Positions 20,575 to 44,140 of a DNA stretch of 64,000 nt are shown in pieces. The DNA comes from an uncultured Gammaproteobacteria bacterium (GTDB lineage Bacteria > Pseudomonadota > Gammaproteobacteria > UBA4575): NCBI GenBank assembly GCA_951812785.1, contig OX638335.1, positions 1,443,653 through 1,507,652 on the forward strand, read 5' to 3'. A model generated the notes under the pieces. That model searched no databases and was not told where the DNA came from. It worked only from the letters and a program-made list of their open reading frames with translations. The first letter of the stretch is position 1, and each line of letters opens with the position of its first letter. Position numbers and translations under genes: made by a program.

Positions 20575-23500
20575 TTCCTAAGCTGCCTGTGCGGCAGTAA
20601 ACATTGCGTTGGACTTGTACCGCCCGTTTCGTACTTTCTAAGCTGCCTGTGCGGCAGTAAACGTATGCATCCTTCCGGATGATACCAGTTTAGCTTTCTA
20701 AGCTGCCTGTGCGGCAGCTAACTATCGCGCAGTTCTTTTGAGTCCATGACCCACTTTCTAAGCTGCCTGTGCGGCAGCTAACAAGAATCAGTAGCATTTG
20801 AAGATATACTTGAATTTCTAAGCTGCCTGTGCGGCAGTAAACCTAATGCAGAAATCAACTCACAAGATTTATCATTTCTAAGCTGCCTGTGCGGCAGTAA
20901 ACATCGATCAAGCCGCTGGCCGATTTATATCGCGTTTCTAAGCTGCCTGTGCGGCAGTAAACCACTACCACTTGGTCGCCTCGGCGAAGCAATTTTTCTA
21001 AGCTGCCTGTGCGGCAGTAAACTGGTTAATCATACGACCGACTGACGACTTTGATTTCTAAGCTGCCTGTGCGGCAGTAAACTTCATTTTGTTTCTTCCG
21101 ACTTTCCAATCGTTTTTCTAAGCTGCCTGTGCGGCAGTAAACATGTAAAAAATGCATTAGCTGTTAATGCTGTGTTTCTAAGCTGCCTGTGCGGCAGTAA
21201 ACATCGATCAAGCCGCTGGCCGATTTATATCGCGTTTCTAAGCTGCCTGTGCGGCAGTAAACCACCGAGCAGCCAACACCACGGCCGTTCATCATTTCTA
21301 AGCTGCCTGTGCGGCAGTAAACAATGAAAAACTGGAAAGCAGCAGTGCGAACGTTTTCTAAGCTGCCTGTGCGGCAGTAAACGTACATCGCATATTGAGC
21401 AAGAAGTTATGCAATTTCTAAGCTGCCTGTGCGGCAGTAAACACCCTTGACTTATACCTTGAGATTTTGGTACTGTTTCTAAGCTGCCTGTGCGGCAGTA
21501 AACACTGTCGTAAAATGGTACACGGCGGCGGCGTTTTTCTAAGCTGCCTGTGCGGCAGTAAACGCTACACCACCTGTAATATTGACTTGTGCGCCTTTCT
21601 AAGCTGCCTGTGCGGCAGTAAACTACTTATAGCAACCTCAACTGATGTGGTGTCCTTTCTAAGCTGCCTGTGCGGCAGTAAACTACTTATAGCAACCTCA
21701 ACTGATGTGGTGTCCTTTCTAAGCTGCCTGTGCGGCAGTAAACCTTGTTGTTTTTTGTCGCTCTTAGAGCTGACTTTTCTAAGCTGCCTGTGCGGCAGTA
21801 AACTATTGGCTGTTGTCCAATATGCTGCAACTCTTTTTCTAAGCTGCCTGTGCGGCAGTAAACTAGCGAAGTGGTTCACAGCTGCCCAGTTGGATTTTCT
21901 AAGCTGCCTGTGCGGCAGTAAACGCACCGGTCTAGAAATTATAAGTTTACGAAGATTTCTAAGCTGCCTGTGCGGCAGTAAACCCAACTCGGTCTCAAGT
22001 CAAAAAAATCTACTGTTTCTAAGCTGCCTGTGCGGCAGTAAACGTGATCAAGCAATTGATGTGATCGATAAATTATTTCTAAGCTGCCTGTGCGGCAGTA
22101 AACCGGCGGTGGTAGAGGTGAAGCGATATCAGTGTTTTCTAAGCTGCCTGTGCGGCAGTAAACAATTCTTTTTGTCGCTCATAATTCTTGTCATTTTTCT
22201 AAGCTGCCTGTGCGGCAGTAAACGTTTCTTTCTTTTTATCTCTCTCTCTCCTTTCTAAGCTGCCTGTGCGGCAGTAAACGTTAGCATCACTGCGTTACAA
22301 AATATTACACGTTTCTAAGCTGCCTGTGCGGCAGTAAACAACATGTATATTACCTTTGCCCCAAGCGTTTATTTCTAAGCTGCCTGTGCGGCAGTAAACG
22401 GCTAACGCCGGTGACCAAGATGTCTTTGGATTTTCTAAGCTGCCTGTGCGGCAGTAAACCTGTGCATAGTCAAATAATGCATGGTTTTACATTTCTAAGC
22501 TGCCTGTGCGGCAGTAAACTGCATAAGCATGCCTAAAGACTTTCCTCGTGCTTTCTAAGCTGCCTGTGCGGCAGTAAACGTGGCCGAGGCGAAGCAATAT
22601 CTGTCTGGCTCTTTCTAAGCTGCCTGTGCGGCAGTAAACGGTGGTGGAAAACATGCTCTTAATTTTAGTGATTTCTAAGCTGCCTGTGCGGCAGTAAACC
22701 CGACGCCAGACTACAAAGACCTGAATATTTATTTCTAAGCTGCCTGTGCGGCAGTAAACTCGATACACAGGTGACACAACTCAAAATGTATTTTCTAAGC
22801 TGCCTGTGCGGCAGTAAACTCGTGTCACAGTCAGATAATGCATGGATTTACTTTCTAAGCTGCCTGTGCGGCAGTAAACGTGCAGGAGTAGGTACATTAG
22901 GCGACTATCTATTTCTAAGCTGCCTGTGCGGCAGTAAACGTGGCCGAGGCGAGGCAATATCTGTCTGGCTTTTTCTAAGCTGCCTGTGCGGCAGTAAACG
23001 CAACACGTGAGATCGATGAGATCTTATTAAATTTCTAAGCTGCCTGTGCGGCAGTAAACGTGCGTCTGTTATGCGCGGCACAACAGATAACTTTCTAAGC
23101 TGCCTGTGCGGCAGTAAACTTCGCAGCATCAACACGGGACTACAACACAATTTTCTAAGCTGCCTGTGCGGCAGTAAACGGTTAATGGATTTCTGTGCAC
23201 GCCATTCACCCTTTCTAAGCTGCCTGTGCGGCAGTAAACGGTGCAGGATTTCCCTTTCAGCGAATTGATGGTTTCTAAGCTGCCTGTGCGGCAGTAAACC
23301 TGTTGAGATTTTTGACAATGTCGGCGGTGCATTTCTAAGCTGCCTGTGCGGCAGTAAACACAAAAAGAATTCGCACAAAGTGGCATCAGGTTTTCTAAGC
23401 TGCCTGTGCGGCAGTAAACATGAATACCGGCGAGCTCAATCATCTATCGCATTTCTAAGCTGCCTGTGCGGCAGTAAACTGTCTGTTCGACCGTCTACAA

Positions 23501-26500
23501 TGTACAGCAACTTTCTAAGCTGCCTGTGCGGCAGTAAACGGGCAACTTAGCAACACGTAACACAGTGCAAGTTTCTAAGCTGCCTGTGCGGCAGTAAACT
23601 GGCCAAGAATCGACAACCATCATCTTGATGTTTTCTAAGCTGCCTGTGCGGCAGTAAACAAACAGAAATCAATTTTGAGAAAAATCGCTGATTTCTAAGC
23701 TGCCTGTGCGGCAGTAAACCAAAATTGATGGGAAGTCTAGACCTTCTTGAATTTCTAAGCTGCCTGTGCGGCAGTAAACCGCCTTGTTTTGACATCATCC
23801 AATCGATGATATTTCTAAGCTGCCTGTGCGGCAGTAAACTACCCGGCTCACATCTTGGATCTTTTAGATCGTTTCTAAGCTGCCTGTGCGGCAGTAAACT
23901 CGGAAATACTCAACAAAATGAACAACTTACATTTCTAAGCTGCCTGTGCGGCAGTAAACAGCGAATGCTTCAGACCAGTCAGTATTCGGCTTTTCTAAGC
24001 TGCCTGTGCGGCAGTAAACTGATGCTGTGTTCAAACCCAGTTAGCAAGCATTTTCTAAGCTGCCTGTGCGGCAGTAAACTAAAATTCCCTGTTACTCCAA
24101 ATCCTTTGACTTTTCTAAGCTGCCTGTGCGGCAGTAAACGCATGGACACATAATCAGTCTTATGAGTGTTATTTCTAAGCTGCCTGTGCGGCAGTAAACA
24201 TGCTAGGTTACAACGACCAGAATATTTAGGCTTTCTAAGCTGCCTGTGCGGCAGTAAACCTCTTGCAATACGTTGATCGTCAGTTTCCACCTTTCTAAGC
24301 TGCCTGTGCGGCAGTAAACTGTAACTCTTCAATTTCGCATAATTGATTCATTTTCTAAGCTGCCTGTGCGGCAGTAAACTAAAATTCCCTGTTACTCCAA
24401 ATCCTTTGACTTTTCTAAGCTGCCTGTGCGGCAGTAAACTCTGTCTGATTCGATCAATCCCGAAATCCACATTTCTAAGCTGCCTGTGCGGCAGTAAACA
24501 TAGTCGTTTAGCGAGAGGAGCGATTTGGGGATTTCTAAGCTGCCTGTGCGGCAGTAAACCTAGATATGTGGGTCGCCAAGCTCTGCCATCTTTTCTAAGC
24601 TGCCTGTGCGGCAGTAAACTATCGCAATACAAACTACTCACTACGGATCTTTTTCTAAGCTGCCTGTGCGGCAGTAAACTGAAACTGCCTGTAACGCCAA
24701 AACCTTTGACGTTTCTAAGCTGCCTGTGCGGCAGTAAACAGCAATCGGCGGAGTAGTCTCGACAGTCCTTGTTTCTAAGCTGCCTGTGCGGCAGTAAACT
24801 TGATGTTGCAACTGGATCTGCATTTAATCACTTTCTAAGCTGCCTGTGCGGCAGTAAACGCGCTAACAAATAGCGCTGGGATTTTTTGATCGTTTCTAAG
24901 CTGCCTGTGCGGCAGTAAACTATGATTTAGATCTCACACATGCTGAAAGTATTTTCTAAGCTGCCTGTGCGGCAGTAAACGGCAAATGCGAGTGACCAGG
25001 ATGTGTTTGGTTTTTCTAAGCTGCCTGTGCGGCAGTAAACCGAGTGCTATCAGATCAAGTCGATAAAAATCATTTCTAAGCTGCCTGTGCGGCAGTAAAC
25101 AACCCTGGCTATCCTAACGTTTTCGCTCGTGCTTTCTAAGCTGCCTGTGCGGCAGTAAACTTTCCCTTTGTAATATGTCCAATGCCGCTTCGTTTCTAAG
25201 CTGCCTGTGCGGCAGTAAACATGAATATAGGAGAGCTCAATCATCAATTGCTTTTCTAAGCTGCCTGTGCGGCAGTAAACCAGTTAATGCACGGCCGCCA
25301 GCTTCAACGTAATTTCTAAGCTGCCTGTGCGGCAGTAAACAATCAATTTTGAGGAGTATTGCGCATGAACGCTTTCTAAGCTGCCTGTGCGGCAGTAAAC
25401 CAGATGATCCTGCATTAACGATCTACGCGTTATTTCTAAGCTGCCTGTGCGGCAGTAAACTGCCACCATCTTTTGACTTTAGATGCTGTGCGTTTCTAAG
25501 CTGCCTGTGCGGCAGTAAACGGCTTCTTCTCTGACAAATTGACTTGCCAGGGTTTCTAAGCTGCCTGTGCGGCAGTAAACAGTGAGCATGGTCATATAAT
25601 ATCACTCATGTCTTTCTAAGCTGCCTGTGCGGCAGTAAACGTGGTGCAGTGGCGGATGAGGTTGAGTAAGTATTTCTAAGCTGCCTGTGCGGCAGTAAAC
25701 AGCCCGGACAGTCCGGCCCATCTCCGACAACCTTTCTAAGCTGCCTGTGCGGCAGTAAACATTCTGCTCCTAAATAATATCTGATTTTTGTTTTTCTAAG
25801 CTGCCTGTGCGGCAGTAAACATGATCGATGCGCAGTTAGCAAGACTGCGCGCTTTCTAAGCTGCCTGTGCGGCAGTAAACTACATATAGGTGAAATCAAT
25901 TCACATTCCCTCTTTCTAAGCTGCCTGTGCGGCAGTAAACTGTCTCATGTTGTACTGCAAGATTTCTGGCGCTTTCTAAGCTGCCTGTGCGGCAGTAAAC
26001 TTCGTGCTCGTCGTCTTGTCAGCAAATCAACTTTTCTAAGCTGCCTGTGCGGCAGTAAACGTTGTTGATCGTCGCTCTTGGATGCGACGATCTTTCTAAG
26101 CTGCCTGTGCGGCAGTAAACGAAGGTCTTGCAATTGATATATGCACGCTCTCTTTCTAAGCTGCCTGTGCGGCAGTAAACGCAGCACTGCTACTGGTGCG
26201 AGATAACTAAGTTTTCTAAGCTGCCTGTGCGGCAGTAAACTTTTTATCTCAAGCGCCGATGCTGCGCGGGCATTTCTAAGCTGCCTGTGCGGCAGTAAAC
26301 TAAGCTGTAAGACGAGGAAATAATTATGTCATTTTCTAAGCTGCCTGTGCGGCAGTAAACGAATATTCCTTCGGAACGTGTCACCGCATTTATTTCTAAG
26401 CTGCCTGTGCGGCAGTAAACGTGCTGTGACAGCATTAACAATTAACAATAATTTTCTAAGCTGCCTGTGCGGCAGTAAACTTTTTATCTCAAGCGCCGAT

Positions 26501-29500
26501 GCTGCGCGGGCATTTCTAAGCTGCCTGTGCGGCAGTAAACTAAGCTGTAAGACGAGGAAATAATTATGTCATTTTCTAAGCTGCCTGTGCGGCAGTAAAC
26601 GAATATTCCTTCGGAACGTGTCACCGCATTTATTTCTAAGCTGCCTGTGCGGCAGTAAACGTGCTGTGACAGCATTAACAATTAACAATAATTTTCTAAG
26701 CTGCCTGTGCGGCAGTAAACTAAATTTAGCAATGAGAATTGCAGCACTTGTTTTTCTAAGCTGCCTGTGCGGCAGTAAACGACAATTTGTCGAGCAAGCG
26801 TATGAAGAAATCTTTCTAAGCTGCCTGTGCGGCAGTAAACTCATTGCGCCTGCAACTGCGATTGCAATTGCATTTCTAAGCTGCCTGTGCGGCAGTAAAC
26901 AGCAGCCAGAAATGTCAGGGATTGCGTTATTTTTTCTAAGCTGCCTGTGCGGCAGTAAACCAAATGGCAATGTTGGTAAAATGTTCGGTCATTTTCTAAG
27001 CTGCCTGTGCGGCAGTAAACTTTGAAAAACTCAGGTATTAAAGCAAAAAATTTTTCTAAGCTGCCTGTGCGGCAGTAAACCGATCGAGGCGGTGGTAGAG
27101 ATGAAACAGGAGTTTCTAAGCTGCCTGTGCGGCAGTAAACGGACTAATGAGACCAGCAGCTACTAATTCGCTTTTCTAAGCTGCCTGTGCGGCAGTAAAC
27201 TTGCAAAGTGGTTTACTGCTGCACAGTTAGACTTTCTAAGCTGCCTGTGCGGCAGTAAACATAACAACACAAGAAGTAATGAAATTAGTAGTTTTCTAAG
27301 CTGCCTGTGCGGCAGTAAACTTGAAGTCAAATTTACATTGATGCCGGAAAGCTTTCTAAGCTGCCTGTGCGGCAGTAAACTGAAATTTCCGGTAACGCCG
27401 AAGCCTTTGACGTTTCTAAGCTGCCTGTGCGGCAGTAAACATATAATTCTGACATTATTTTTTACCTCGTCTTTTCTAAGCTGCCTGTGCGGCAGTAAAC
27501 GCACGCTTTCAATTCATAAACAGACAATGCACTTTCTAAGCTGCCTGTGCGGCAGTAAACCAACAGACAGTCAGACAGTCGCAGATCAATATTTTCTAAG
27601 CTGCCTGTGCGGCAGTAAACGTACGTCTTTTTTACACAAACTATTATCAACGTTTCTAAGCTGCCTGTGCGGCAGTAAACTCGACTTCCATTGTTTGCAT
27701 TCGAATTTTGTCTTTCTAAGCTGCCTGTGCGGCAGTAAACGCCGAGCGGTAACGATACTGCCGGACCCCTCTTTTCTAAGCTGCCTGTGCGGCAGTAAAC
27801 ATAAAATTAATTACATGCGCAAACACTATAATTTTCTAAGCTGCCTGTGCGGCAGTAAACACACGCTTTCGATTCATAAACAGACAATGCATTTTCTAAG
27901 CTGCCTGTGCGGCAGTAAACATAAAATTAATTACATGCGCAAACACTATAATTTTCTAAGCTGCCTGTGCGGCAGTAAACTTTTTGGTTAGCACCAAGAG
28001 CCCGCGCACGCGTTTCTAAGCTGCCTGTGCGGCAGTAAACATGTTGTCATTGATGAAAATACACATGTTTTTTTTCTAAGCTGCCTGTGCGGCAGTAAAC
28101 AAACACTCGCGACTATCGCGGCTCCGCCAACATTTCTAAGCTGCCTGTGCGGCAGTAAACGAACAAAATTAGGTATCAAAGGCTTGCTAGAATTTCTAAG
28201 CTGCCTGTGCGGCAGTAAACTCGATTTTGATGTTGCGAAGTTGCCGCCTCTTTTTCTAAGCTGCCTGTGCGGCAGTAAACCTCCGACTGATGGCGGCATG
28301 CCAAGATAATCTTTTCTAAGCTGCCTGTGCGGCAGTAAACTGTCGCGATACTAGTGATTCTAGAACGTAGATTTTCTAAGCTGCCTGTGCGGCAGTAAAC
28401 TGTCGCGATACTAGTGATTCTAGAACGTAGATTTTCTAAGCTGCCTGTGCGGCAGTAAACAGGTAATCTTCCTGCATTATTGCCATGGATTCTTTCTAAG
28501 CTGCCTGTGCGGCAGTAAACGCAACTGGTACAAATAACCACAAATATTGAATTTTCTAAGCTGCCTGTGCGGCAGTAAACTGAAATTGGTGCAGGAGTTG
28601 GGCGAAGAGATGTTTCTAAGCTGCCTGTGCGGCAGTAAACGCAACTGGTACAAATAACCACAAATATTGAGTTTTCTAAGCTGCCTGTGCGGCAGTAAAC
28701 ATACTACAGATAACAAAAATTAATAAGCAACTTTTCTAAGCTGCCTGTGCGGCAGTAAACCGTGTGTTTTTTTGTTTTGTTGTGACTGATTTTTTCTAAG
28801 CTGCCTGTGCGGCAGTAAACGGAACTGCAGCATATCGGACAACAACCAATTCTTTCTAAGCTGCCTGTGCGGCAGTAAACCGGCACAACTGACAACGGAC
28901 TTGAGCTTGTGTTTTCTAAGCTGCCTGTGCGGCAGTAAACGCTTATTACCCTGGCCCGCGGGTAGATCTTCGTTTCTAAGCTGCCTGTGCGGCAGTAAAC
29001 TATCAAATGCAGAATCAGTATCGCCGCCGAGATTTCTAAGCTGCCTGTGCGGCAGTAAACATGTTGCGATTACTAATGTTGCATCGCAACAGTTTCTAAG
29101 CTGCCTGTGCGGCAGTAAACTGCTCTTCGTTCTCTGTCTTTTCGTTCTTCTGTTTCTAAGCTGCCTGTGCGGCAGTAAACTTTCTTGACGCATTTCTACA
29201 ACAGCTTCAACCTTTCTAAGCTGCCTGTGCGGCAGTAAACATGAAATTAGTGGTGGAATTAGGAGAAGAAATTTTCTAAGCTGCCTGTGCGGCAGTAAAC
29301 GCAATTAGTACAAATAACCACAGATATAACATTTTCTAAGCTGCCTGTGCGGCAGTAAACCAGGAAGGGATTTTTTTGACCAGCCCGTTGGCTTTCTAAG
29401 CTGCCTGTGCGGCAGTAAACTGAGTTGGGGAGCAATCGGCGGCGCTATAGGTTTTCTAAGCTGCCTGTGCGGCAGTAAACGTAACTTAGATTTTGTAGTT

Positions 29501-32500
29501 CAAAAACGAGGCTTTCTAAGCTGCCTGTGCGGCAGTAAACACACGCTTTCAGTACATAAACAAACGATGCACTTTCTAAGCTGCCTGTGCGGCAGTAAAC
29601 TTTTAGAAGGATGTGGATTATGTGTTTTAATCTTTCTAAGCTGCCTGTGCGGCAGTAAACGCACAAAATTAGGTATTGCTGGTCTATTAGAATTTCTAAG
29701 CTGCCTGTGCGGCAGTAAACTATTCGAGATTCAGGTGTTTCTTTTGACCTGATTTCTAAGCTGCCTGTGCGGCAGTAAACGACGCGCGTTAACTGCGCAA
29801 GAAGAATTGGTCTTTCTAAGCTGCCTGTGCGGCAGTAAACTTGTCATCGCGCTGCGCAAAGCGCGAGTGGTTTTTCTAAGCTGCCTGTGCGGCAGTAAAC
29901 GTCGTTCGAGTGCTTCAGCACCAGCAACACCCTTTCTAAGCTGCCTGTGCGGCAGTAAACACAATGTCAATAATCTCTGTACGACAATTAACTTTCTAAG
30001 CTGCCTGTGCGGCAGTAAACTGAAATTAGTGGTAGAATTAGGTGAAGAACTGTTTCTAAGCTGCCTGTGCGGCAGTAAACTCTGTCTGATTCGATCAATT
30101 CCGAAGTCCACATTTCTAAGCTGCCTGTGCGGCAGTAAACTCTGTCTGATTCGATCAATTCCGAAGTCCACATTTCTAAGCTGCCTGTGCGGCAGTAAAC
30201 TCTGTCTGATTCGATCAATTCCGAAGTCCACATTTCTAAGCTGCCTGTGCGGCAGTAAACACAGTGTGCATCTCATAACTAAGCAAGACACTTTTCTAAG
30301 CTGCCTGTGCGGCAGTAAACATAGTCGTTTAGCGAGAGGAGTAATTTGGGGATTTCTAAGCTGCCTGTGCGGCAGTAAACAGATGCTCAAAAATATGCAA
30401 CTTAGTAAGTTATTTCTAAGCTGCCTGTGCGGCAGTAAACGCGGTACTGCTGCTGTACGCGTGTAATCAACTTTTCTAAGCTGCCTGTGCGGCAGTAAAC
30501 ATTCAGCCTATCAACACATTACAACAGCAATCTTTCTAAGCTGCCTGTGCGGCAGTAAACGGACTTTACCGCGCGGACGAAAGCGATAGCGCCTTTCTAA
30601 GCTGCCTGTGCGGCAGTAAACTACCACAATGTGACCTTCATACTAACGGGGCATTTCTAAGCTGCCTGTGCGGCAGTAAACAAGATTTACATTAGCATTA
30701 CCAACGATCTGTTTTTCTAAGCTGCCTGTGCGGCAGTAAACCAAATGATCCTGTTACTCCGAAGCCCTTGACTTTTCTAAGCTGCCTGTGCGGCAGTAAA
30801 CGAAATCTAGATTTCGTAGTTCAAAGACGCGGATTTCTAAGCTGCCTGTGCGGCAGTAAACGTTACTGGTTAAGACTCTTTCAACAGATTGTTTTTCTAA
30901 GCTGCCTGTGCGGCAGTAAACGCCCCGAAAGTGGTCGATAACGACAAAAGTGCTTTCTAAGCTGCCTGTGCGGCAGTAAACGTCTATTACGTACCTAGAC
31001 TTGCCCCGAAAGTTTTCTAAGCTGCCTGTGCGGCAGTAAACTCAATACAAACAGAAAACGAATGAAACCAAAGTTTCTAAGCTGCCTGTGCGGCAGTAAA
31101 CGAATCTGCTTGGTTGCGTACGAGACGCGCTGATTTCTAAGCTGCCTGTGCGGCAGTAAACTCCCTGCGCGATTTCGTTGCCTGATTGATCCTTTTCTAA
31201 GCTGCCTGTGCGGCAGTAAACTAATGTTTGTCGTTTTGCTTGCGTCATACTGCTTTCTAAGCTGCCTGTGCGGCAGTAAACTCCGCGCAAAGATTTTCAC
31301 GTCGTGCCGCGCGTTTCTAAGCTGCCTGTGCGGCAGTAAACATTTTGAAAATGTCAAAAAAGGTGATTTGGGCTTTCTAAGCTGCCTGTGCGGCAGTAAA
31401 CCAATACCGCGCTCTGTATTCAAACTGGATCATTTTCTAAGCTGCCTGTGCGGCAGTAAACATAGCTAAACTTGGTAATGTAAATGAAGCTCATTTCTAA
31501 GCTGCCTGTGCGGCAGTAAACTTAGATGGTCAGTCGAAGACGCAAAAGCGGCTTTTCTAAGCTGCCTGTGCGGCAGTAAACGTGTCAGAATATATGGAAA
31601 AATTTGGCCGCTTTTTCTAAGCTGCCTGTGCGGCAGTAAACCTAGCAAGCCTTTAATACCTAACTTCGTCCGATTTCTAAGCTGCCTGTGCGGCAGTAAA
31701 CATATCACGAAGCAGCATTGGACATATTGGTAATTTCTAAGCTGCCTGTGCGGCAGTAAACTTTTAATGGCATTTAAAGATTCATTCTTGTCATTTCTAA
31801 GCTGCCTGTGCGGCAGTAAACACAATTAGTAAGAATAACCACAAATATAGAGTTTTCTAAGCTGCCTGTGCGGCAGTAAACTGGCAAGTCTATATGTAGA
31901 AGAAGAAGCGAAATTTCTAAGCTGCCTGTGCGGCAGTAAACTTAGTCAGTACAAACTACTTACGACCGATCTTTTTCTAAGCTGCCTGTGCGGCAGTAAA
32001 CATTACACAATCACGATTATGCAACTGTAGAGATTTCTAAGCTGCCTGTGCGGCAGTAAACTTTCTATAACAGCTTCAACTGAAGCAGTGTCATTTCTAA
32101 GCTGCCTGTGCGGCAGTAAACGCTATAGAACTAGAACAAGAAGAATTAGAATTTTTCTAAGCTGCCTGTGCGGCAGTAAACCAACTAGAGAGTGATACTT
32201 AAAAAATTAGGGTTTTCTAAGCTGCCTGTGCGGCAGTAAACTTTGTTATTGTCGCTTTCTGATGCGACTGGATTTTCTAAGCTGCCTGTGCGGCAGTAAA
32301 CATATCATCAATTATTTACAGTTAGGCACAGATTTTCTAAGCTGCCTGTGCGGCAGTAAACGTAACGAGACTGCTGGACCGCGCTGCGCCCAGTTTCTAA
32401 GCTGCCTGTGCGGCAGTAAACCATAGCACAGCACTAATACGGTGCACGCCGATTTTCTAAGCTGCCTGTGCGGCAGTAAACGAAATCTCGATTTCGTAGT

Positions 32501-34822
32501 TCAGAAGCGCGGCTTTCTAAGCTGCCTGTGCGGCAGTAAACTTGCAAAGTGGTTCACAGCAGCGCAGTTAGATTTTCTAAGCTGCCTGTGCGGCAGTAAA
32601 CAGCAACCGGAAATGTCAGGGATCGCGTTATTCTTTCTAAGCTGCCTGTGCGGCAGTAAACGAGTCGACAGCGCCAGATTTTGGTGCTGTCGATTTCTAA
32701 GCTGCCTGTGCGGCAGTAAACATGAAAGATTGGAAAGCAGCGGTACGAACCTTTTCTAAGCTGCCTGTGCGGCAGTAAACGGATTTCAAATCCCAGATAC
32801 GGCGGCAGTCGATTTCTAAGCTGCCTGTGCGGCAGTAAACCTATGATTATCGGATAAATTTTCATCATTATATTTCTAAGCTGCCTGTGCGGCAGTAAAC
32901 GGCATTTCAATGGGCTCGGAAGGCATGAAATATTTCTAAGCTGCCTGTGCGGCAGTAAACGTAACGAGACTGCTGGACCGCGCTGCGCCCAGTTTCTAAG
33001 CTGCCTGTGCGGCAGTAAACCATAGCACAGCACTAATACGGTGCACGCCGATTTTCTAAGCTGCCTGTGCGGCAGTAAACTGATGCCTGAGAGCGGGGCT
33101 GTTGTACCAAGTTTTCTAAGCTGCCTGTGCGGCAGTAAACACGTTCTCCCGCATACCCGTCAACTTCACCACTTTCTAAGCTGCCTGTGCGGCAGTAAAC
33201 TAAGAAAGAAGCAATGAGTGAGGCGGCTCGCCTTTCTAAGCTGCCTGTGCGGCAGTAAACTCGTGCCGATTAGTTGCACAGAAGTACTGCCTTTTCTAAG
33301 CTGCCTGTGCGGCAGTAAACAACTACTTAGATATGATAAGCGATTAGATAAATTTCTAAGCTGCCTGTGCGGCAGTAAACCCCGTCAAGTTATTATAACT
33401 GGTCCGCGCGGCTTTCTAAGCTGCCTGTGCGGCAGTAAACACTATGAGAGACAAAAAGAATTTGCGCAGAGCTTTTCTAAGCTGCCTGTGCGGCAGTAAA
33501 CGCCCGTCAAAACTTTGTGCAATATAAGGCATCTTTCTAAGCTGCCTGTGCGGCAGTAAACCGAAAAAAACAGATACACGTCTGTATTATATGTTTCTAA
33601 GCTGCCTGTGCGGCAGTAAACGTATCGTGCGCCGTATCTGGCGCGAGCCTCTTTTTCTAAGCTGCCTGTGCGGCAGTAAACTGAGCGCATGTTTACCGCC
33701 ACCTAAGTATTCTTTTCTAAGCTGCCTGTGCGGCAGTAAACGTGCAGTAGTGCCAAGCGGCAACGAAACTGCATTTCTAAGCTGCCTGTGCGGCAGTAAA
33801 CTGAGTGCGTGTTTGCCTCCGCCAAGGTACTCATTTCTAAGCTGCCTGTGCGGCAGTAAACCCAAAACTGGATGCATGAGCGGAGCAGCCATGTTTCTAA
33901 GCTGCCTGTGCGGCAGTAAACCAGTTAGTAAAAATGGTATGACATTCGGTTGCTTTCTAAGCTGCCTGTGCGGCAGTAAACACGCGGTCGAATGTCCAAG
34001 TATAGAGTCGCCATTTCTAAGCTGCCTGTGCGGCAGTAAACTTCTGCGTTTTGCCGCATCGATGACATCTGCGTTTCTAAGCTGCCTGTGCGGCAGTAAA
34101 CGCTTTGTTGAGCCTTTTTTTCGGCCAGCACCTTTTCTAAGCTGCCTGTGCGGCAGTAAACGGCTCTCAAATACGAGATAACACATCAATTGATTTCTAA
34201 GCTGCCTGTGCGGCAGTAAACCTAGCAACTTGCTTGCAAGTTGCTAGCCTAGAGTTTCTAAGCTGCCTGTGCGGCAGTAAACATGGCTAGTAATAAGATA
34301 CGAGCTCGTCGACTTTTCTAAGCTGCCTGTGCGGCAGTAAACCGGAGATAATTATGAGTTGGGGTAGTGCAATATTTCTAAGCTGCCTGTGCGGCAGTAA
34401 ACTGTGGATAGACGGCTATTTTTTAGCGACCGATTTTCTAAGCTGCCTGTGCGGCAGTAAACATGGTTTAGAGCAAGTTACAGATCGCGACTTATTTCTA
34501 AGCTGCCTGTGCGGCAGTAAACTCTGTCTGATTCGATCGATGCCAAAATCCACATTTCTAAGCTGCCTGTGCGGCAGTAAACTTAGCGAGAGGAGCAATT
34601 TGGGGCGGATTGGCTTTCTAAGCTGCCTGTGCGGCAGTAAACAAACGCAGAATGTCAGCGCGACAATACAAGCATTTCTAAGCTGCCTGTGCGGCAGTAA
34701 ACACCAGGGAGGATTGACCAAAAGATCGAGACAATTTCTAAGCTGCCTGTGCGGCAGTAAACCTTAAACACTACTATTATAGTGTTTGCGCATATTTCTA
34801 AGCTGCCTGTGCGGCAGTAAAC
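20575..34822 (-). CRISPR. type I-F CRISPR array, ~238 repeats and 237 spacers, transcribed right to left
   Basis: 28-nt repeat (minus-strand reading GTTTACTGCCGCACAGGCAGCTTAGAAA) on a strict 60-nt period with mostly 32-nt spacers. The distal repeat at 20575-20602 carries one substitution. The leader-proximal repeat ends at 34822, next to cas6f. Confidence 0.98.
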
Positions 34823-37489: not shown

Positions 37490-38802
37490 CGTAACGCCTC
37501 CTTGTGTTTCACGACCTGCTTATGGATATGCTTAAATTCGCCGTCTGAAAATATAAAAGTTTTTTTGCCGAGCAATTTTTCATAACCATTAAAGATAAAT
37601 TTAGCGATGTCAGTGCATAGCATATCTAACCAGTCATTTTCATCTTCTCGTTGCGCTTCATTGGCCATACAGAGCCATATTTTTTGAGTAGGGTTTAACT
37701 GGCTAGTATCTGGGTTGTATTGCGCTTCGCTTACGCTTCTTACTCGCCACATTCTTTCAATAATTCGATCCATGATGGCCTGGTAATATTCATCGCGCGC
37801 ACTCCGGATATGCCTATTATTTTTGTGGTTAAGAAATATTAAGTCATGCAAGGCATAAAACAAATCTCTACATTGAAAATAACTGAACGATTGGCTAAAA
37901 AAGTCCACTGTTGGAAAGTGGATGTCACGCTTGATTAATTTGGGTGGCTCGCTCGGTAGCAGATGCACTTTGCCACCGTTTTGATTGTTCAAAACGCTAA
38001 TATTCTGCGGCTTGGTACCGCCATAACCCATCGTGGTTAAGTTGGCCAGTTGCTTATAACCCCCTATATACATTTCATTGTTCTTTTCACATTTCGCAAA
38101 GTCTCTTGCGCCCGCATCCGGACCTATATACATTTCATTGTTCTTTTCACAAGTTCTGGCAATTTTTGTTTCTTCAGAAAAACGGATGGTATCAATCCTT
38201 TTTCTCAGCTCGAATACTATGCCAGATGCAGACAGTATCGATAATTGGTGGTAGCCATTTTCTACAGGAAAGTAGACCTGTTTAATTTTGGAACTCGTTA
38301 TGCTATCAGCATCGCTATTCGTCATGGCTAAAAAGCCTTCTTTTAAAGTGCTGTATGACTCTGCTTTAATCTTGAGAAGTTGTTGTGCTAAATCAGAATC
38401 TTGCTCGATGTGGCTAAGTAAGGTTTGCCCATCTTGCATATTAAGCGTCAAAAATTTATAGACATCTAATGCGGCAGCATTGCCCAGTGCATCGGCCTCC
38501 ACAACAACGTTGCCACTGCGTAAATAGCCATCGTTGCTTGCTTGGCTATCGGCAATAATTGATGAGGCATAGCCATTCTTATTTTTACGTGAACTAGGAT
38601 GGCTGAAAGTACATGGATGCGTGGATATGGACATTTGCCCCGCTCGCTTGGCGGCATTTGGCAACCAATTTTCCAAACTAAATTGCTCGGAGCACTCCTG
38701 TTCCTTAGCCTGGATCATCGTTTCATCTGCACCAGCATGAAGATTTTTCTTTAACCAAGCCGCTTTACGCTTGTCAAAGAATTCAGCTATTACTTTCTCC
38801 AT
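37486..38802 (-). CDS. cas8f: Cas8f (Csy1) large subunit
   Basis: 438 aa, first gene of the csy operon. Contains an internal 29-bp perfect direct repeat (see findings). Confidence 0.88.
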   Translation of the reverse strand: MEKVIAEFFDKRKAAWLKKNLHAGADETMIQAKEQECSEQFSLENWLPNAAKRAGQMSISTHPCTFSHPSSRKNKNGYASSIIADSQASNDGYLRSGNVVVEADALGNAAALDVYKFLTLNMQDGQTLLSHIEQDSDLAQQLLKIKAESYSTLKEGFLAMTNSDADSITSSKIKQVYFPVENGYHQLSILSASGIVFELRKRIDTIRFSEETKIARTCEKNNEMYIGPDAGARDFAKCEKNNEMYIGGYKQLANLTTMGYGGTKPQNISVLNNQNGGKVHLLPSEPPKLIKRDIHFPTVDFFSQSFSYFQCRDLFYALHDLIFLNHKNNRHIRSARDEYYQAIMDRIIERMWRVRSVSEAQYNPDTSQLNPTQKIWLCMANEAQREDENDWLDMLCTDIAKFIFNGYEKLLGKKTFIFSDGEFKHIHKQVVKHKEALR

Positions 38803-39182: not shown

Positions 39183-42100
39183 TCACACTCTCACCAATCC
39201 GAATTGGTCGTTATATTTATATTTAGCGCTTTCATCGTGCCAAAAACTTAACTCGCCATAGCGCAACGATGCCCTACGCATACTCATATCTTGTGCGTCT
39301 GCCATACTTGCTATTTCTGCTTCAAAGTCGCGTTGTAGCCATAGCCGTTTGCTTGCTTCTGTAGCCAACTGCACACGATCAATACCAAGCGGTAGTTCAC
39401 GTGGCACAGGAAAGCCTTTTTCGTTTTTTTCACAAAAGGTACATGCCTGCTTATTTTCATCAAAGGCCAAAAACACTTTCAAGCTCGGCGGAGATTTTCT
39501 AAACGACACTATGTGTTGCGGGTATGCCGTCAAAAACCAGGCTTCACGCAAATAGCCTTGTAGCTGAGCAGGGCCGTTACCGTCTCGTCCATAGTTAGCC
39601 AATAACTTGCAAATAACATAATGTTCTAAATCTGCCAATTGTTTTTTAGGCTGTAGATCTTTTGATTTTTGGATACGTGCAATAGCATCTACACGCTGTA
39701 ATAAGGCATCCGCATCCAGCAAGTCATTCAAGTTGTGGCTTGCCAACCTGATTTGGTCTTCAAAACCTGGCCTGTTAAATACTTTACCGTTTTCAAGGTG
39801 TTTATCGCGTACCCCCCGCCAGTTGTATTGCAGCAAACTGATGTTAGGCACTTCCACGCCGATTTTACGATGACGACGCACACGTCCTGCCAATTGGATA
39901 ATTGAACGATACGAAGATGGTTCCACAACTGCCCAGTCAAAATCGTGGTCGCGACCAACCTCTTCTACGGGAGTTGCCACTAACACAAACAGCACATGTT
40001 TAACCTGTGGTTCGGTTCGCTTTATATGCTCAAGGTGTTGACGAATAACAGTGTTTAGAAAAGCTTTGGGTTGTTCATCTATGTCTTCTTTACGTTTTAA
40101 TACTTGGCCTAGGTGCTGTTCTTGTTTATGGCGCATCAGCAAGACTTGCTGACTGTGGTACGGCATCGTTCTTATCTGAACGTCTGCTGGCAGATCCATC
40201 TTTAGCAAGTAACGGGCTAAGGCTATGCAGGGTTGAATATTCGCCATGCGCACCACGCCAAACGACACCGCCAATTGGCTTTGTTGATCAACCATGTGAT
40301 GGTGCTGATGTTTAGTGAGAACACTATCAGTAATGATTTTAAAATAGGCTTGTTGTTTACTCGCTATAACGTTTTCATCGTTAGGGCTATGGGTAAAATC
40401 AGCAAAGATTTGTTCACAAGGAGTAATGTCAGCTTTGCGCTTAACCGGTTGTTTGACTAATTTAGCAACGCGTTTTTCGACAAATTTCACGTGTTCACTG
40501 CGGTAAGCAGGTATTGCATCCCGCACTTGCAAGCCATGATTACTTGCGACGACTGTGTTAAATTCATCTATCCATGCACAGCCCACCGTCGCACTGGCAT
40601 CACGGCTTTTACAGTAGATTAGCCATCCATCTCGGTACGCTTTGAAGTAGCCTTCAGCTAAATCAGGCGTAATGGTTGCCGAGGAGATCATCACCTTTCG
40701 ACCTAACATACCTGCTAAGTGAATGAGGCGTCCAATAGCGACTAAATCCTCACCGGTAAAATCGTCAACTTCATCAATTACTAGATCAGAAGACATTAAC
40801 CGTAGAGTAGGCAAAATATAGCGCCCCCCACGCTTAGTCTCAGTTGCCGCCATAAGATGGTCGATGGTGCAGGCTAATACCGGCGCATAGAGGAATTTTT
40901 TATCACGTTGTTCACGCAGTACGGTAGTCATACCTTCTTCAGGAATAGCGCAATCGTAATCGACTTCTTCATCCAACAATGTTTCTTGTGACTCTGAACC
41001 ACTTGCTTCAAAACTCAGTTCTTCTGTCTCAGTTTTTGCTTGCTGATGTAACGCCATGACGGCACGCGAGCCGATCAGTACCGCCAGTTCGGTTGCATCC
41101 AAACCCACTCGCTCACGGTATTCATCACCTGTTTGTAATGTGAGGGTACGTAAGCCCAGAGCCAAAATAAAACGCAGGCTATTCCCATCATTTGATACAG
41201 CCTGCATCACTTTGGCATTGGCAAAGGTTTTACCGCAGCCCGTACTTGCCATATTCACAGCGAAAAAACCTTGCTTTTGCGTATTATTCTTGCGCCAATG
41301 TTTAATGTTATCTACGGCTTTATCTTGCCAACGAAATTCGCCAGGGCTTAGTTTTTTCAATGCTGTGATGTCTTGCGCTATGGGTGGTTCAGCTTCAAAT
41401 GCCGGTAGCAAATGTGCAGTGTTTAAACCATGCCTTGCAACACCAACCAAATGCTCATCCAGCTTTTGCTTTAAAGCTTTAGTTTTAAAATCGGTATTGG
41501 CAAATAAGCCGAGCTTGTCTTGCCATTTTTTATCGGCATTTTGTGATGAGTAATAATGATCACCCAGCATTACGCATAACCGCGCATAATTTAATACTGA
41601 TCGGTAACTGCCATCATTGAGTGATTGCAATACCTGCGATTCACAAGCTAGTAAGCGTTGTGACCATTTTTTAATTTGCTTTAACCAAGGTTGCGAAGCG
41701 CTGAGTAGCCCATTAGGAAAATTAAAACATTGTTCAACCCGCTGCTTATATTCAGCCTGATCATAGTTGTTTTCGTAACCCCACTGCTGAGTAACCAGGC
41801 ATAAAACATTATCAATGTTAGGACAGCATTCAGCCCGCATATCCACATCTTTATTTAGCGGTAAACGATGATGGGAGACAACCAGCCAAGCCACTAGTTT
41901 AGCTATCGGTGGTAAATTTTTTAGCGGATTAGTCTGCTGTTTACTGGCAATGGCTTTTATCTTGGCTTCATCAATGTCGCCTTTTGCTAAGGTCTCAAGC
42001 CAACCACTATCGTTTACATTGTTTGTATCGCCTTGATGCATTTGAATAAGTGCATTCAGCAATAAACACGAAATCCATTCATGCCGAATAGGGTCACCTT

Positions 42101-42545
42101 TAAAGCCCATTTTATTCTTAGGCTTCAATTTTTCCTGGAACAGTTGGCTGGCTTTACCCCAATCATGCAAAAGCGCGGCAATAGCCACCAAGGCTTTAAT
42201 TAAGGGTAAATACGCCCAGTCATTTTCAATATGAGAATTTAATAAATTTCGCCTCGTCGTGTTAACGGGCACGGCTCCTTCGCGATCAAATTTCTGACGA
42301 TTACCCACCACCCAAACCAACTCACTACGCGCACGGCTGCGTATCCAATGACAGCTTACCGCAGTGTTTTTACTGGCAGTTTTTCTAAGTAATTTTTTTA
42401 CTGCCAGTAAGCCTTCCTGGGTGATAATTGTTTGCCAGGTGTTATCGCCAATGCGGTTGGCGAAGGCATCAAGCACACGGCGACTGCGGGCGTGGGCTTT
42501 TTTTTCGCATTGACTAACAAAGGTAACCATCATGACCAAAGACAC
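39183..42545 (-). CDS. cas3: Cas2-Cas3 fusion (Cas3f) helicase-nuclease
   Basis: 1120 aa with an N-terminal Cas2 domain (..VSQCEKKAHARSRRVLDAFA..HWIRSRARSELVWVVGN..), HD nuclease and SF2 helicase. The ORF-track start is GTG at 42545; ATG codons 4-5 codons downstream are more likely the real start. Confidence 0.93.
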   Translation of the reverse strand: MSLVMMVTFVSQCEKKAHARSRRVLDAFANRIGDNTWQTIITQEGLLAVKKLLRKTASKNTAVSCHWIRSRARSELVWVVGNRQKFDREGAVPVNTTRRNLLNSHIENDWAYLPLIKALVAIAALLHDWGKASQLFQEKLKPKNKMGFKGDPIRHEWISCLLLNALIQMHQGDTNNVNDSGWLETLAKGDIDEAKIKAIASKQQTNPLKNLPPIAKLVAWLVVSHHRLPLNKDVDMRAECCPNIDNVLCLVTQQWGYENNYDQAEYKQRVEQCFNFPNGLLSASQPWLKQIKKWSQRLLACESQVLQSLNDGSYRSVLNYARLCVMLGDHYYSSQNADKKWQDKLGLFANTDFKTKALKQKLDEHLVGVARHGLNTAHLLPAFEAEPPIAQDITALKKLSPGEFRWQDKAVDNIKHWRKNNTQKQGFFAVNMASTGCGKTFANAKVMQAVSNDGNSLRFILALGLRTLTLQTGDEYRERVGLDATELAVLIGSRAVMALHQQAKTETEELSFEASGSESQETLLDEEVDYDCAIPEEGMTTVLREQRDKKFLYAPVLACTIDHLMAATETKRGGRYILPTLRLMSSDLVIDEVDDFTGEDLVAIGRLIHLAGMLGRKVMISSATITPDLAEGYFKAYRDGWLIYCKSRDASATVGCAWIDEFNTVVASNHGLQVRDAIPAYRSEHVKFVEKRVAKLVKQPVKRKADITPCEQIFADFTHSPNDENVIASKQQAYFKIITDSVLTKHQHHHMVDQQSQLAVSFGVVRMANIQPCIALARYLLKMDLPADVQIRTMPYHSQQVLLMRHKQEQHLGQVLKRKEDIDEQPKAFLNTVIRQHLEHIKRTEPQVKHVLFVLVATPVEEVGRDHDFDWAVVEPSSYRSIIQLAGRVRRHRKIGVEVPNISLLQYNWRGVRDKHLENGKVFNRPGFEDQIRLASHNLNDLLDADALLQRVDAIARIQKSKDLQPKKQLADLEHYVICKLLANYGRDGNGPAQLQGYLREAWFLTAYPQHIVSFRKSPPSLKVFLAFDENKQACTFCEKNEKGFPVPRELPLGIDRVQLATEASKRLWLQRDFEAEIASMADAQDMSMRRASLRYGELSFWHDESAKYKYNDQFGLVRV

Positions 42546-42752: not shown

Positions 42753-42771
42753 AATAATCTGCTATACTTTG

Positions 42772-42890: not shown

Positions 42891-43829
42891 CTATTCGCCA
42901 AGACTAACTTGCTTCACCTGTTCAAACATAAAATCCAGTGCTTTGTGCTGGGTAAAGTTTTGCAGACATTGTTGGCGAAACTCCTGTTCGCTGGAGTTTT
43001 CCTTAGCACAGATAAAAGCCCAGGGCAGAATCAATGTGTCCTTTACCAAATCGGCAATATCAAAGACCAATGCACCACGACGAGTTTTACCATGCATCAC
43101 GGCAAACCCATGTGGAATGCCCAGTACCCAAAGGGTGGTTGCGGCTAAACCATAAGCCAGGTAATTGCCATGATTGAGAAAGGCATTGGCAGTATCTTCG
43201 GCTTCGTGGGTGCGGGTGAAGTCGCCATACTCGGTGCGGGTAGCGGCCAGTTTATACAACCATTTGGTGAGCTGGGCTTCGGTGTTGAGTAGTTCACTGA
43301 CTCTGGTGCAATGTTTTATTCTGTTGATGGCGTTATCTAATGCGCTTTTTATTGATGGGTCGTCGCTTGAAAAGCCTTCGCTCTTGAGATCGCGGTCACG
43401 TGACCAAACTTGTTGTAAAAATTCAATTCTTGCCTGCTGGAATTGTTTAGCAGCTTGCAAGCGCTTACTGTCGTCAAACCAGAATTGCATCCACCCTTGC
43501 ATATATTCGGTGGGACGATATTCGCTTTGTGGTGTCAGCCATTCAATTTCATTAGCCATAAGTAATGGTGTGCCACCTCCACCACAAAAACCAACTAATA
43601 CACCAGCTTGTGCGAGCATACGCATAGCTGCTTGAGTAATAGATGTGCCTGTTCCCAATAACAAGCAGGTGGTATTGGCAATCGGGATATTCCAATACTG
43701 GTTTTCTTCTTTGGCTTCAGTAAGGTACAAAACACGGCCATCTTTTTGCATGACGCGACATTTTTCAAGGTAATAAATGTTCGCTCGCTTAGAATGGAGG
43801 ATGGCTTTCAGGTCAGTCAGTTGATCCAC
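42891..43829 (-). CDS. cas1: Cas1 integrase (I-F type)
   Basis: 312 aa, MDQLTDLKAILHSKRANIYYLEKCRV...; first gene of the cas operon. Confidence 0.93.
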   Translation of the reverse strand: MDQLTDLKAILHSKRANIYYLEKCRVMQKDGRVLYLTEAKEENQYWNIPIANTTCLLLGTGTSITQAAMRMLAQAGVLVGFCGGGGTPLLMANEIEWLTPQSEYRPTEYMQGWMQFWFDDSKRLQAAKQFQQARIEFLQQVWSRDRDLKSEGFSSDDPSIKSALDNAINRIKHCTRVSELLNTEAQLTKWLYKLAATRTEYGDFTRTHEAEDTANAFLNHGNYLAYGLAATTLWVLGIPHGFAVMHGKTRRGALVFDIADLVKDTLILPWAFICAKENSSEQEFRQQCLQNFTQHKALDFMFEQVKQVSLGE

Positions 43830-44052
43830 GATATTAGGTGATGTTCATGCTATTGTTGAACCTGATATTACATTGTTACAATTTTTTATCAAACCATTAT
43901 GCTTCCCAATATCCAGAATATAGAGAGCACCAAAATATAGCTCTTTTAGAAATAATGATATTAGGCCACCTCAAAGAGACAGAAAATATTGCCAGGACTT
44001 AAGGACTTACCTAGACTTTATGGTTGGTAGAGCAACATTTTATCGGTGGAAT

Positions 44053-44140
44053 TTGAATGATCGCGCAGGCGATGAAAACTGCAGAAACGCGCAAGCAAAA
44101 TCTTATTGAAAATTGAATGATCGCGCAGGCGATGAAAACT
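44053..44140 (+). repeat. orphan two-repeat CRISPR-like unit with a non-I-F repeat
   Basis: Identical 28-nt repeats TTGAATGATCGCGCAGGCGATGAAAACT at 44053-44080 and 44113-44140 flank a 32-nt spacer at 44081-44112. The repeat carries a 5-bp stem ATCGC/GCGAT with a 4-nt loop and a GAAAACT tail. Confidence 0.5.

What the first reader, a model, noticed from the sequence alone, without database searches (positions are those of the whole stretch)
44053..44140. Orphan two-repeat CRISPR-like unit with a different 28-nt repeat, located upstream of cas1
Two identical 28-mers TTGAATGATCGCGCAGGCGATGAAAACT are separated by exactly 32 nt. These are the I-F repeat and spacer dimensions, and the fold is the same: a 7-nt 5' flank, a 5-bp stem ATCGC/GCGAT with a 4-nt loop, and a 7-nt tail ending GAAAACT. 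The sequence does not match the resident repeat. It lies 225 bp upstream of cas1. If transcribed in the I-F-like sense it points away from cas1, which is the same divergent arrangement as the two intra-operon modules. It could be a remnant of a second array from a divergent or lost I-F-like system. It could also be a mobile-element-borne mini-array or a third regulatory crRNA-like element. No CC-flanked seed match for its spacer was evident nearby by eye.
Basis: seen in the sequence. Interest (0 to 1): 0.55.

Follow-up and report, generated by a model that had tools for sequence, protein, structure and literature searches.

The report
Stray CRISPR spacer insertion beside cas1
The two identical 28-base repeats around a 32-base insert upstream of cas1 are most likely a scar left when the cell's own CRISPR integrase pasted a spacer into ordinary DNA; a second scar of the same size sits inside the cas8f (csy1) gene, so this locus holds two rare natural examples of off-target spacer integration.

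Summary
TTGAATGATCGCGCAGGCGATGAAAACT occurs exactly twice (44053-44080 and 44113-44140), 32 nt apart, with no other copy in the window.

It is not a known CRISPR repeat. It has no Rfam match. No array with this repeat or hairpin was found in genome, metagenome or viral collections. It matches the resident I-F repeat at only 12 of 28 positions.

It is not a regulatory crRNA-like element either. Its spacer has no CC-flanked seed target above chance. The two resident-like mini-arrays inside the cas operon do have such targets directly beside them.

The decisive clue is a second unit. A scan of the non-array part of the window for direct repeats at spacings of 36-95 nt finds only two, both perfect and both at spacing 60, which is the resident repeat plus spacer period. 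The second unit (38063-38151) lies inside csy1/cas8f. It is an exact 20-codon insertion that is absent from all 12 nearest homologues.

A 28-29 bp target duplication flanking a 31-32 bp unrelated insert is the signature of Cas1-Cas2/3 integration. I therefore read the finding as an off-target spacer integration ("neo-CRISPR" unit), probably recent and probably non-functional. Confidence is about 0.7. No empty site is available for the finding itself.

The parts
44053..44080 (.). Unit A, copy 1 of the duplicated 28-bp target (TTGAATGATCGCGCAGGCGATGAAAACT on +)
   Evidence: Exact match; only two copies in the window.
44081..44112 (.). Unit A, 32-nt insert (spacer) GCAGAAACGCGCAAGCAAAATCTTATTGAAAA
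   Evidence: Its length equals the modal resident spacer length (32 nt in 230 of 237 spacers). It is unrelated to either flank, has no other copy in the window and has no phage or viral match.
44113..44140 (.). Unit A, copy 2 of the duplicated 28-bp target
   Evidence: Identical to copy 1.
38063..38091 (.). Unit B, copy 1 of a 29-bp (28 + 1 ambiguous) duplicated target inside csy1/cas8f (CCTATATACATTTCATTGTTCTTTTCACA on +)
38092..38122 (.). Unit B, 31-nt (32 with the ambiguous base) insert, 58% G+C, unrelated to its flanks
   Evidence: Together with one repeat copy it forms the 60-bp, 20-codon insertion absent from all 12 nearest Csy1 homologues and from P. aeruginosa Csy1 in the PDB.
38123..38151 (.). 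Unit B, copy 2 of the duplicated target
   Evidence: Identical to copy 1.
42891..43829 (-). cas1 (type I-F), intact; inferred catalyst of both integrations
   Evidence: PF01867; best homologues are named type I-F Cas1.
39183..42545 (-). cas2-3 fusion, intact; partner of Cas1 in the I-F integrase
   Evidence: Pfam Cas3_I-F_Cas2, Cas3_HD and helicase domains.
20575..34822 (-). Resident I-F CRISPR array of 238 repeats of 28 nt with period 60. It sets the 28 + 32 ruler and shows a very active adaptation history.
   Evidence: Rfam CRISPR-DR4 hits; repeat and spacer counts.
43989..44017 (+). Sigma-70-like promoter match (TTGCCA-17-TAGACT) 35 nt upstream of unit A. It could drive a + strand transcript but may be chance.
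   Evidence: 5 promoter-like sites found against 3.1 expected in shuffles, so this is not significant.

Best explanation
Unit A is a natural off-target (non-canonical) spacer integration, a two-repeat 'neo-CRISPR'.

Proposed mechanism: the resident type I-F Cas1-Cas2/3 integrase, loaded with a 32-nt prespacer, attacked ordinary intergenic DNA upstream of cas1 instead of the leader-repeat junction. Its two strand-transfer reactions landed 28 bp apart on opposite strands, and gap repair copied the 28 bp between them. The result is target-insert-target with exactly the resident dimensions.

What is shown: the 28 + 32 geometry, the perfect identity of the copies, the absence of any relation to known repeats, and a second unit of the same geometry inside cas8f that is a proven insertion.

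What is inferred: that the resident integrase made it, that it is recent (no mutation between the copies), and that it is now inert. Cas6f and the Csy complex are unlikely to use it, because the closing base pair of the hairpin and the 8-nt 5' handle differ from the resident repeat, and there is no I-F leader to allow further growth.
For: (1) Geometry. The repeat is exactly 28 bp and the insert exactly 32 nt. The resident array has 28-nt repeats, and 230 of its 237 spacers are 32 nt.

(2) Uniqueness of the spacing. Outside the array, a scan for direct repeats with at least 21 of 28 matching positions at spacings 36-95 finds only two. Both are perfect and both are at spacing 60; none occurs at any other spacing.

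(3) The second unit (38063-38151, in csy1) has an unrelated, non-hairpin 'repeat'. It is an exact 20-residue insertion: 12 homologues at 69-80% identity (417-421 aa, against 438 aa here) all carry a single copy of CEKNNE(I/M/F)(Y/F/Q)... and align without gaps once the 60 bp are removed. The alignment to P. aeruginosa Csy1 breaks at the same place. This gives empty-site evidence for the mechanism in this very locus.

(4) The adaptation genes cas1 and cas2-3 are intact, and the 238-repeat array indicates intense adaptation.

(5) For I-F Cas1-2/3, the published in vitro data say that only a 5' GT of the repeat is required and the rest of the repeat is free (bioRxiv 10.1101/2023.05.26.542337). 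Read on the - strand, which is the array's sense, both duplicated segments have GT at positions 2-3 (A|GTTTTC..., T|GTGAAAAG...). Unit B can be read as a 28-mer starting with GT plus a 32-nt spacer.

(6) Off-target integration creating neo-CRISPR units has been shown experimentally in E. coli, with circumstantial natural cases in two other species (Nivala et al. 2018, as described in the papers read).

(7) In about 170 kb of related I-F loci, no such non-array unit occurs. The two here are therefore not a common background feature.
Against: There is no empty site for unit A itself. No Cas1 above 85% identity exists in the protein collection, and the source genome could not be retrieved.

No protospacer was found for either insert. 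This says little, because none of the 237 resident spacers hits the phage collection either.

In the - strand reading, unit A starts AG rather than GT. A GT start would require a 27 + 33 unit, or a cut one base upstream. The orientation is unresolved.

Neither site has a leader-like IHF motif next to it. The events would therefore be leader-independent, and the published I-F work treats leader-independent integration as inefficient.

Unit A's hairpin and its 8-of-9 central match to the resident repeat (null probability about 0.0015 per orientation) could also be read as distant kinship to I-F repeats rather than as target-site preference.
Confidence: 0.7

Rival explanations
1. Unit A is a remnant or mini-array of a second, divergent I-F-like or other CRISPR system, lost or carried on a mobile element. 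Its repeat would be a true CRISPR repeat of another family.
For: It has the 28/32 dimensions, a hairpin at the I-F position, and an in-register central match of 8 of 9 positions to the resident repeat. It sits in a decaying defence-island region with a nonsense-interrupted WYL gene and a frameshifted gene.
Against: It matches no Rfam CRISPR-DR family (best E = 1.5). The 20-mer core gives only 18 single chance hits in unrelated contigs among 185,579 species genomes, none of them arrays. The 24-mer and the paired-hairpin pattern are absent from 241 million metagenome records and from viral contigs. It lacks the conserved I-F 5' GTTyAC and the CTTAGAAA handle. Terminal repeats of decayed arrays are usually degenerate, whereas these are identical. 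Unit B shows the same geometry arising inside a gene with no array ancestry.
Confidence: 0.12
2. Unit A is a third regulatory crRNA-like element (CreA/CreR-type mini-array). It would load into the resident Csy complex and repress a promoter through partial complementarity.
For: It is close to the cas operon. A promoter-like site lies 35 nt upstream on the + strand. It has the same + strand orientation as the two intra-operon mini-arrays.
Against: The two genuine mini-arrays keep 19-24 of 28 identity to the resident repeat, including the CTTAGAAA handle. Each has a CC-flanked target beside it: 12 and 9 consecutive base-pairing positions at 39045 and 42733. Unit A has 12 of 28 identity and a different handle. 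Its best CC-flanked seeds are 6-7 nt and lie in unrelated places such as the EF-Tu gene at 9721 and array repeats, which is chance level. It has a full-length spacer and two identical repeats, unlike the degenerate distal repeat typical of regulatory mini-arrays (bioRxiv 10.1101/2023.03.03.530964).
Confidence: 0.05
3. Unit A has a non-CRISPR origin. It would be a duplicated protein-binding palindrome (operator) or a tandem terminator hairpin downstream of the frameshifted gene 44152-44509, and the 28/32 dimensions would be a coincidence.
For: ATCGCnnnnGCGAT is a palindrome. The - strand copy at 44133-44120 scores as a weak terminator-like site just after the stop codon of the upstream gene. 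A WYL-type regulator gene lies next door.
Against: Exact 28 + 32 with sharp boundaries is unlikely by chance, and it occurs twice in the window at the same period and at no other spacing. The 5-bp stem is weak and the terminator count is at the shuffle level (1 found against 0.8 expected). Operator duplications do not normally produce perfect 28-bp copies separated by unrelated sequence.
Confidence: 0.08

Closest known systems
Off-target (non-canonical) spacer integration generating neo-CRISPR loci (Nivala, Shipman and Church 2018, E. coli type I-E, with putative natural cases in two other species)
   Same: A repeat-length stretch of non-CRISPR DNA is duplicated around a spacer-length insert. 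The copies are identical and unrelated to the resident repeat. The event depends on an active Cas1-Cas2 module in the same cell.
   Different: This is a natural case, not an induced one, in a type I-F system with a Cas2-3 fusion in an uncultured gammaproteobacterium. There are two events within 6 kb of each other inside the cas locus itself, one of them in frame within the effector gene cas8f. No IHF-like motif was seen next to either site. I could not read the original paper; its content is taken from citing papers and from my own recollection.
Regulatory mini-arrays / crRNA-like RNAs in I-F1 loci (Shmakov et al. 2023; CreTA/CreR of the Li laboratory)
   Same: A two-repeat unit in or beside a cas operon, on the strand opposite to the cas genes.
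   Different: Those elements keep resident-like repeats and a PAM-flanked partial target nearby. The two in this window do; unit A does not.
Canonical type I-F CRISPR array (Rfam CRISPR-DR4)
   Same: 28-nt repeat, 32-nt spacer and a central hairpin.
   Different: Only 12 of 28 positions are identical. The 3' handle and the base of the hairpin differ. There are only two repeats, no leader, and no Rfam match.

Membership tests
Off-target spacer integration (neo-CRISPR unit) | The duplicated target has the same length as the resident repeat | tested here: met
   Unit A is exactly 28 bp. Unit B is 29 bp, which is 28 plus one ambiguous base. The resident repeat is 28 nt.
Off-target spacer integration (neo-CRISPR unit) | The insert has the resident spacer length and is unrelated to the flanks | tested here: met
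   Unit A's insert is 32 nt; unit B's is 31 or 32 nt. The resident mode is 32 nt (230 of 237 spacers). Neither insert has another copy in the window.
Off-target spacer integration (neo-CRISPR unit) | Relatives carry an empty site (single copy of the target, no insert) | tested here: inconclusive
   This is met for unit B at the protein level: 12 of 12 homologues lack exactly 20 residues. For unit A it could not be tested, because there is no close relative of this locus.
Off-target spacer integration (neo-CRISPR unit) | An intact adaptation module (Cas1 and Cas2) is present in the same genome | tested here: met
   cas1 (312 aa) and cas2-3 (1120 aa) are intact open reading frames with the expected domains. 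The array has 238 repeats. Enzymatic activity was not tested.
Off-target spacer integration (neo-CRISPR unit) | The insert derives from a PAM-flanked protospacer in foreign DNA | tested here: inconclusive
   No match was found in the phage, plasmid or viral collections. The 237 resident spacers also have no phage match, so this test has no power.
Off-target spacer integration (neo-CRISPR unit) | The target site meets the I-F integrase requirement for a 5' GT at the leader side | tested here: inconclusive
   The requirement comes from bioRxiv 10.1101/2023.05.26.542337. On the - strand, GT is at positions 2-3 of both duplicated segments. This fits unit B as 28 + 32, but fits unit A only as 27 + 33 or with a cut shifted by one base.
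Type I-F CRISPR repeat family | The repeat matches the I-F consensus or the Rfam CRISPR-DR4 model, including the 8-nt CUUAGAAA handle | tested here: not met
   No CRISPR-DR4 hit even at E up to 10. Identity is 12 of 28, and the tail is GAAAACT.
Type I-F CRISPR repeat family | An array with a leader carrying an IHF site and several spacers | tested here: not met
   There are two repeats and one spacer. No IHF-consensus site lies within 200 nt on the - strand side, and the only one on the + strand side is at -166. The resident leader has one at -97.
Regulatory mini-array (CreA/CreR-type crRNA-like RNA) | Repeat-like sequence derived from the resident repeat (a match of at least 16 bp in Shmakov et al.) | tested here: not met
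   The longest in-register block is 9 nt with one mismatch. The two intra-operon modules score 19-24 of 28.
Regulatory mini-array (CreA/CreR-type crRNA-like RNA) | The spacer seed pairs with a PAM-flanked site in a nearby promoter | tested here: not met
   The best CC-flanked seeds are 6-7 nt and lie in unrelated places. The internal positive controls give 12 and 9.

The most novel reading that the evidence does not exclude
The locus records the CRISPR integrase acting on its own cas locus. One event seeded a new two-repeat array with a brand-new repeat sequence, a natural snapshot of how CRISPR arrays are born. It may be transcribed from the promoter-like site at 43989-44017. The other event rewrote the effector gene cas8f by adding 20 in-frame residues. 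If both events cluster at the cas locus because Cas1-Cas2/3 acts preferentially in cis near where it is made or near the array, then adaptation would be a previously unappreciated source of mutation and innovation in cas genes themselves.
Probability: 0.15. Interest if true: 0.8.

Novelty: new member of a known kind. Interest (0 to 1): 0.6.

Why it matters
Off-target spacer integration has been shown mainly under over-expression in E. coli, and natural examples are few and circumstantial. This locus offers two clean natural cases in a type I-F system.

- One case has direct empty-site support from homologues.
- One case lies inside the effector gene cas8f without breaking its reading frame.
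- The pair gives real target sequences with which to test what the I-F integrase needs in a target, since published work says only a 5' GT.
- It shows that CRISPR-like two-repeat units near cas genes need not be remnants or regulators.
- It bears on how new arrays with new repeat sequences originate.
- In practical terms, array finders and mini-array surveys should expect such scars.

Tried and rejected
- **Repeat identity.** I searched the 20-mer core in species-representative genomes and found only 18 single chance hits in unrelated contigs, none of them arrays. In viral contigs it gave none. The 24-mer in metagenomes gave none. A paired-hairpin pattern that allows the flanks to differ gave none in metagenomes or viral contigs. 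Rfam at a permissive E-value gave nothing credible.
- **Spacer origin.** Phage, plasmid and viral searches for both inserts found only chance-level partial hits. The control with the whole resident array was also empty.
- **Self-targets.** A seed scan of the window with and without a CC PAM gave two things worth noting. One is a 16-of-18 match of spacer A to the pseudouridine synthase gene at about 57535-57552, with a GA rather than CC flank. The other is a 19-of-32 in-register match to the resident spacer at 31222-31253. I judge both marginal (expected about 0.05 by chance for the latter) and did not rely on either.
- **Retrieving the source genome or a close relative for an empty site at unit A.** Exact look-ups of Cas1, Csy3 and P0001 failed. 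The nearest Cas1 is 85% identical. The regions upstream of cas1 in relatives (L019, L021, L027) share no sequence with the window.
- **Leader-like features.** No IHF consensus lies close to either unit.
- **Literature.** The Nivala et al. 2018 paper (PMC5832444) and Santiago-Frangos et al. 2021 (PMC8552246) are not held. I used citing papers and a related preprint instead.
- **Terminator or operator reading.** I considered and rejected this on geometry.

Full report
**Observation.** The 28-mer TTGAATGATCGCGCAGGCGATGAAAACT lies at 44053-44080 and 44113-44140. The two copies are identical and are separated by 32 nt. There is no further copy at up to three mismatches, and no shuffle gives two matches. 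The neighbouring bases differ on both sides, so the duplication is exactly 28 bp. The + strand RNA folds into a 5-bp stem with a 4-nt loop at -7.1 kcal/mol, compared with -8.6 for the resident repeat. The unit starts 223 nt upstream of the GTG start of cas1.

**Context.**
- The window carries a complete type I-F1 locus on the - strand: cas1 42891-43829, cas2-3 39183-42545, csy1/cas8f 37486-38802, csy2, csy3 and cas6f 34953-35504.
- Next comes a very large array of 238 repeats (20575-34822) with the repeat GTTTACTGCCGCACAGGCAGCTTAGAAA. Of its 237 spacers, 230 are 32 nt long.
- Upstream of unit A lie a frameshifted small gene (44152-44509), a WYL-domain gene interrupted by one in-frame stop (44672-45427) and a pentapeptide-repeat gene.
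- The organism is an uncultured gammaproteobacterium. Its RpoB is 97% identical to MAG proteins.
- No Cas1 above 85% identity exists in the protein collection apart from its own entry.

**Is it a CRISPR repeat of another system?** I found no support for this.
- No Rfam CRISPR-DR model matches.
- The 20-mer core occurs only as single chance hits in 18 unrelated contigs, most of them metagenome-assembled, among 185,579 species genomes.
- The 24-mer, and a two-hairpin pattern that lets the flanks vary, are absent from metagenome and viral collections.
- In register it shares 12 of 28 positions with the resident repeat. Eight of these fall in the central nine bases. That block has a null frequency of about 0.0015 per orientation among the window's own 28-mers.
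- The I-F 5' end and the CTTAGAAA handle are missing.

**Is it a regulatory crRNA-like element?** The window supplies its own positive controls. The two intra-operon gaps hold resident-like mini-arrays on the + strand: 39068-39156 and 42772-42847, with 19-24 of 28 identity to the resident repeat and the handle kept. Each has a CC-flanked partial target directly beside it, with 12 and 9 consecutive pairing positions at 39045 and 42733 when every sixth base is ignored. This matches the known I-F1 regulatory mini-arrays (bioRxiv 10.1101/2023.03.03.530964). Unit A's spacer, in either sense, has only 6-7-nt CC-flanked seeds in unrelated places. It also has a full-length spacer and two identical repeats.

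**The decisive result.** I scanned the non-array part of the window for direct repeats at spacings of 36-95 nt, requiring at least 21 of 28 matching positions. Exactly two turned up. Both are perfect and both are at spacing 60. The second, unit B, is CCTATATACATTTCATTGTTCTTTTCACA at 38063-38091 and 38123-38151. It lies inside csy1, around a 31-nt stretch of 58% G+C that is unrelated to the flanks. In the protein it reads CEKNNEMYIG-PDAGARDFAK-CEKNNEMYIG. The 12 nearest homologues (69-80% identity, 417-421 residues against 438 here) all have one copy of that motif and lack exactly 20 residues. The alignment to P. aeruginosa Csy1 breaks at the same place. Unit B is therefore a 60-bp insertion with a 28-29-bp target duplication. 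Its 'repeat' is ordinary coding sequence with no hairpin. About 170 kb of related I-F loci contain nothing similar outside true arrays.

**Mechanism.** To my knowledge, only a CRISPR integrase makes a staggered cut of repeat length and fills it with a spacer-length insert. I therefore read both units as off-target integrations by the resident Cas1-Cas2/3. Three lines of published work make this plausible:
- Integration duplicates the repeat.
- For the I-F enzyme in vitro, only the 5' GT of the repeat is needed, and integration proceeds into unrelated repeats.
- Off-target integration producing neo-CRISPR units was shown in E. coli, with circumstantial natural cases (Nivala et al. 2018, as cited; the original paper could not be read).

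Read in the array's sense (- strand), both duplicated segments have GT at positions 2-3. Unit B fits a 28-mer starting with GT plus a 32-nt spacer. Unit A would need 27 + 33 or a cut shifted by one base, so its orientation remains open. Unit A's palindrome and its central similarity to the resident repeat may have favoured the site, but this is an inference.

**What is not shown.**
- There is no empty site for unit A.
- No protospacer was found for either insert. Resident spacers also find nothing, so this absence is uninformative.
- Neither site has a leader-like IHF site close by.
- Expression and processing are untested. From the known specificity of Cas6f for the base of its hairpin, and of the Csy complex for the 8-nt handle (my own knowledge, not tested here), I expect unit A to be inert.

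**Verdict.** The best explanation is an off-target spacer integration scar (confidence 0.7). The rivals are a foreign array remnant (0.12), a non-CRISPR palindrome duplication (0.08) and a regulatory element (0.05). The phenomenon is known, so this is a new member of a known kind. It is still worth attention, because it pairs two natural events in one cas locus, one of them inside cas8f.

Noticed in passing
window 38063-38151 (inside csy1/cas8f, - strand gene 37486-38802): A second 28/29 + 31/32 unit: a perfect 29-bp direct repeat at spacing 60 around a 58% G+C insert. It adds exactly 20 in-frame residues to Cas8f, and these are absent from all 12 nearest homologues and from P. aeruginosa Csy1.
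   Followed up: yes
window 39045-39156 (cas2-3/csy1 gap) and 42733-42847 (cas1/cas2-3 gap): Two resident-like mini-arrays on the + strand: repeats at 39068-39095 and 39129-39156 with a 33-nt spacer, and at 42772-42799 and 42820-42847 with a 20-nt spacer. Each has a CC-flanked partial target just upstream of itself (39045 and 42733). They look like CreA/CreR-type regulatory crRNA-like elements. Whether a toxin gene accompanies them was not examined.
   Followed up: partly
window 44152-44509 and 44672-45427 (- strand): The two genes directly upstream of cas1 look inactivated. The small gene is split by a frameshift into two 53-residue ORFs. The HTH/WYL-type regulator is interrupted by a single in-frame stop at 45077-45079. 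A related locus (L027) has an intact WYL-WCX gene in the same position.
   Followed up: partly
window 20575-34822: A very long I-F array of 238 repeats. Some spacers are duplicated in tandem (TRF reports 100% identical 60-nt periods at 21594-21743 and 28312-28460). None of the 237 spacers matches the phage collection at megablast sensitivity.
   Followed up: partly
window 31222-31253 compared with 44081-44112: Spacer A and one resident spacer share 19 of 32 positions in register and in the same sense, including GCAG at the start and CGCAAGCAAAA in the middle. About 0.05 such matches are expected by chance. If real, it would suggest related protospacers and a + strand sense for unit A.
   Followed up: partly
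window 57521-57552 (- strand, pseudouridine synthase gene 57226-58197): 16 of the first 18 bases of spacer A match here, but the flank is GA rather than CC. This is probably chance.
   Followed up: partly
L027 5426-6308; L029 5454-6308; L022 6980-7180: In related I-F loci the gap between cas1 and cas2-3 carries cargo genes (ORF6N plus Fic-like C-terminal domain; Bro-N; VapB antitoxin). In this window the same gap holds a mini-array.
   Followed up: no
L024-L026 (Coxiella burnetii chromosomes): A type I-F cas locus whose Csy1 is 74% identical to the window's. Its cas1 and cas2-3 are split into fragments in all three records, and csy2 is also split in L024 and L025, so the system appears to be decaying.
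   Followed up: no
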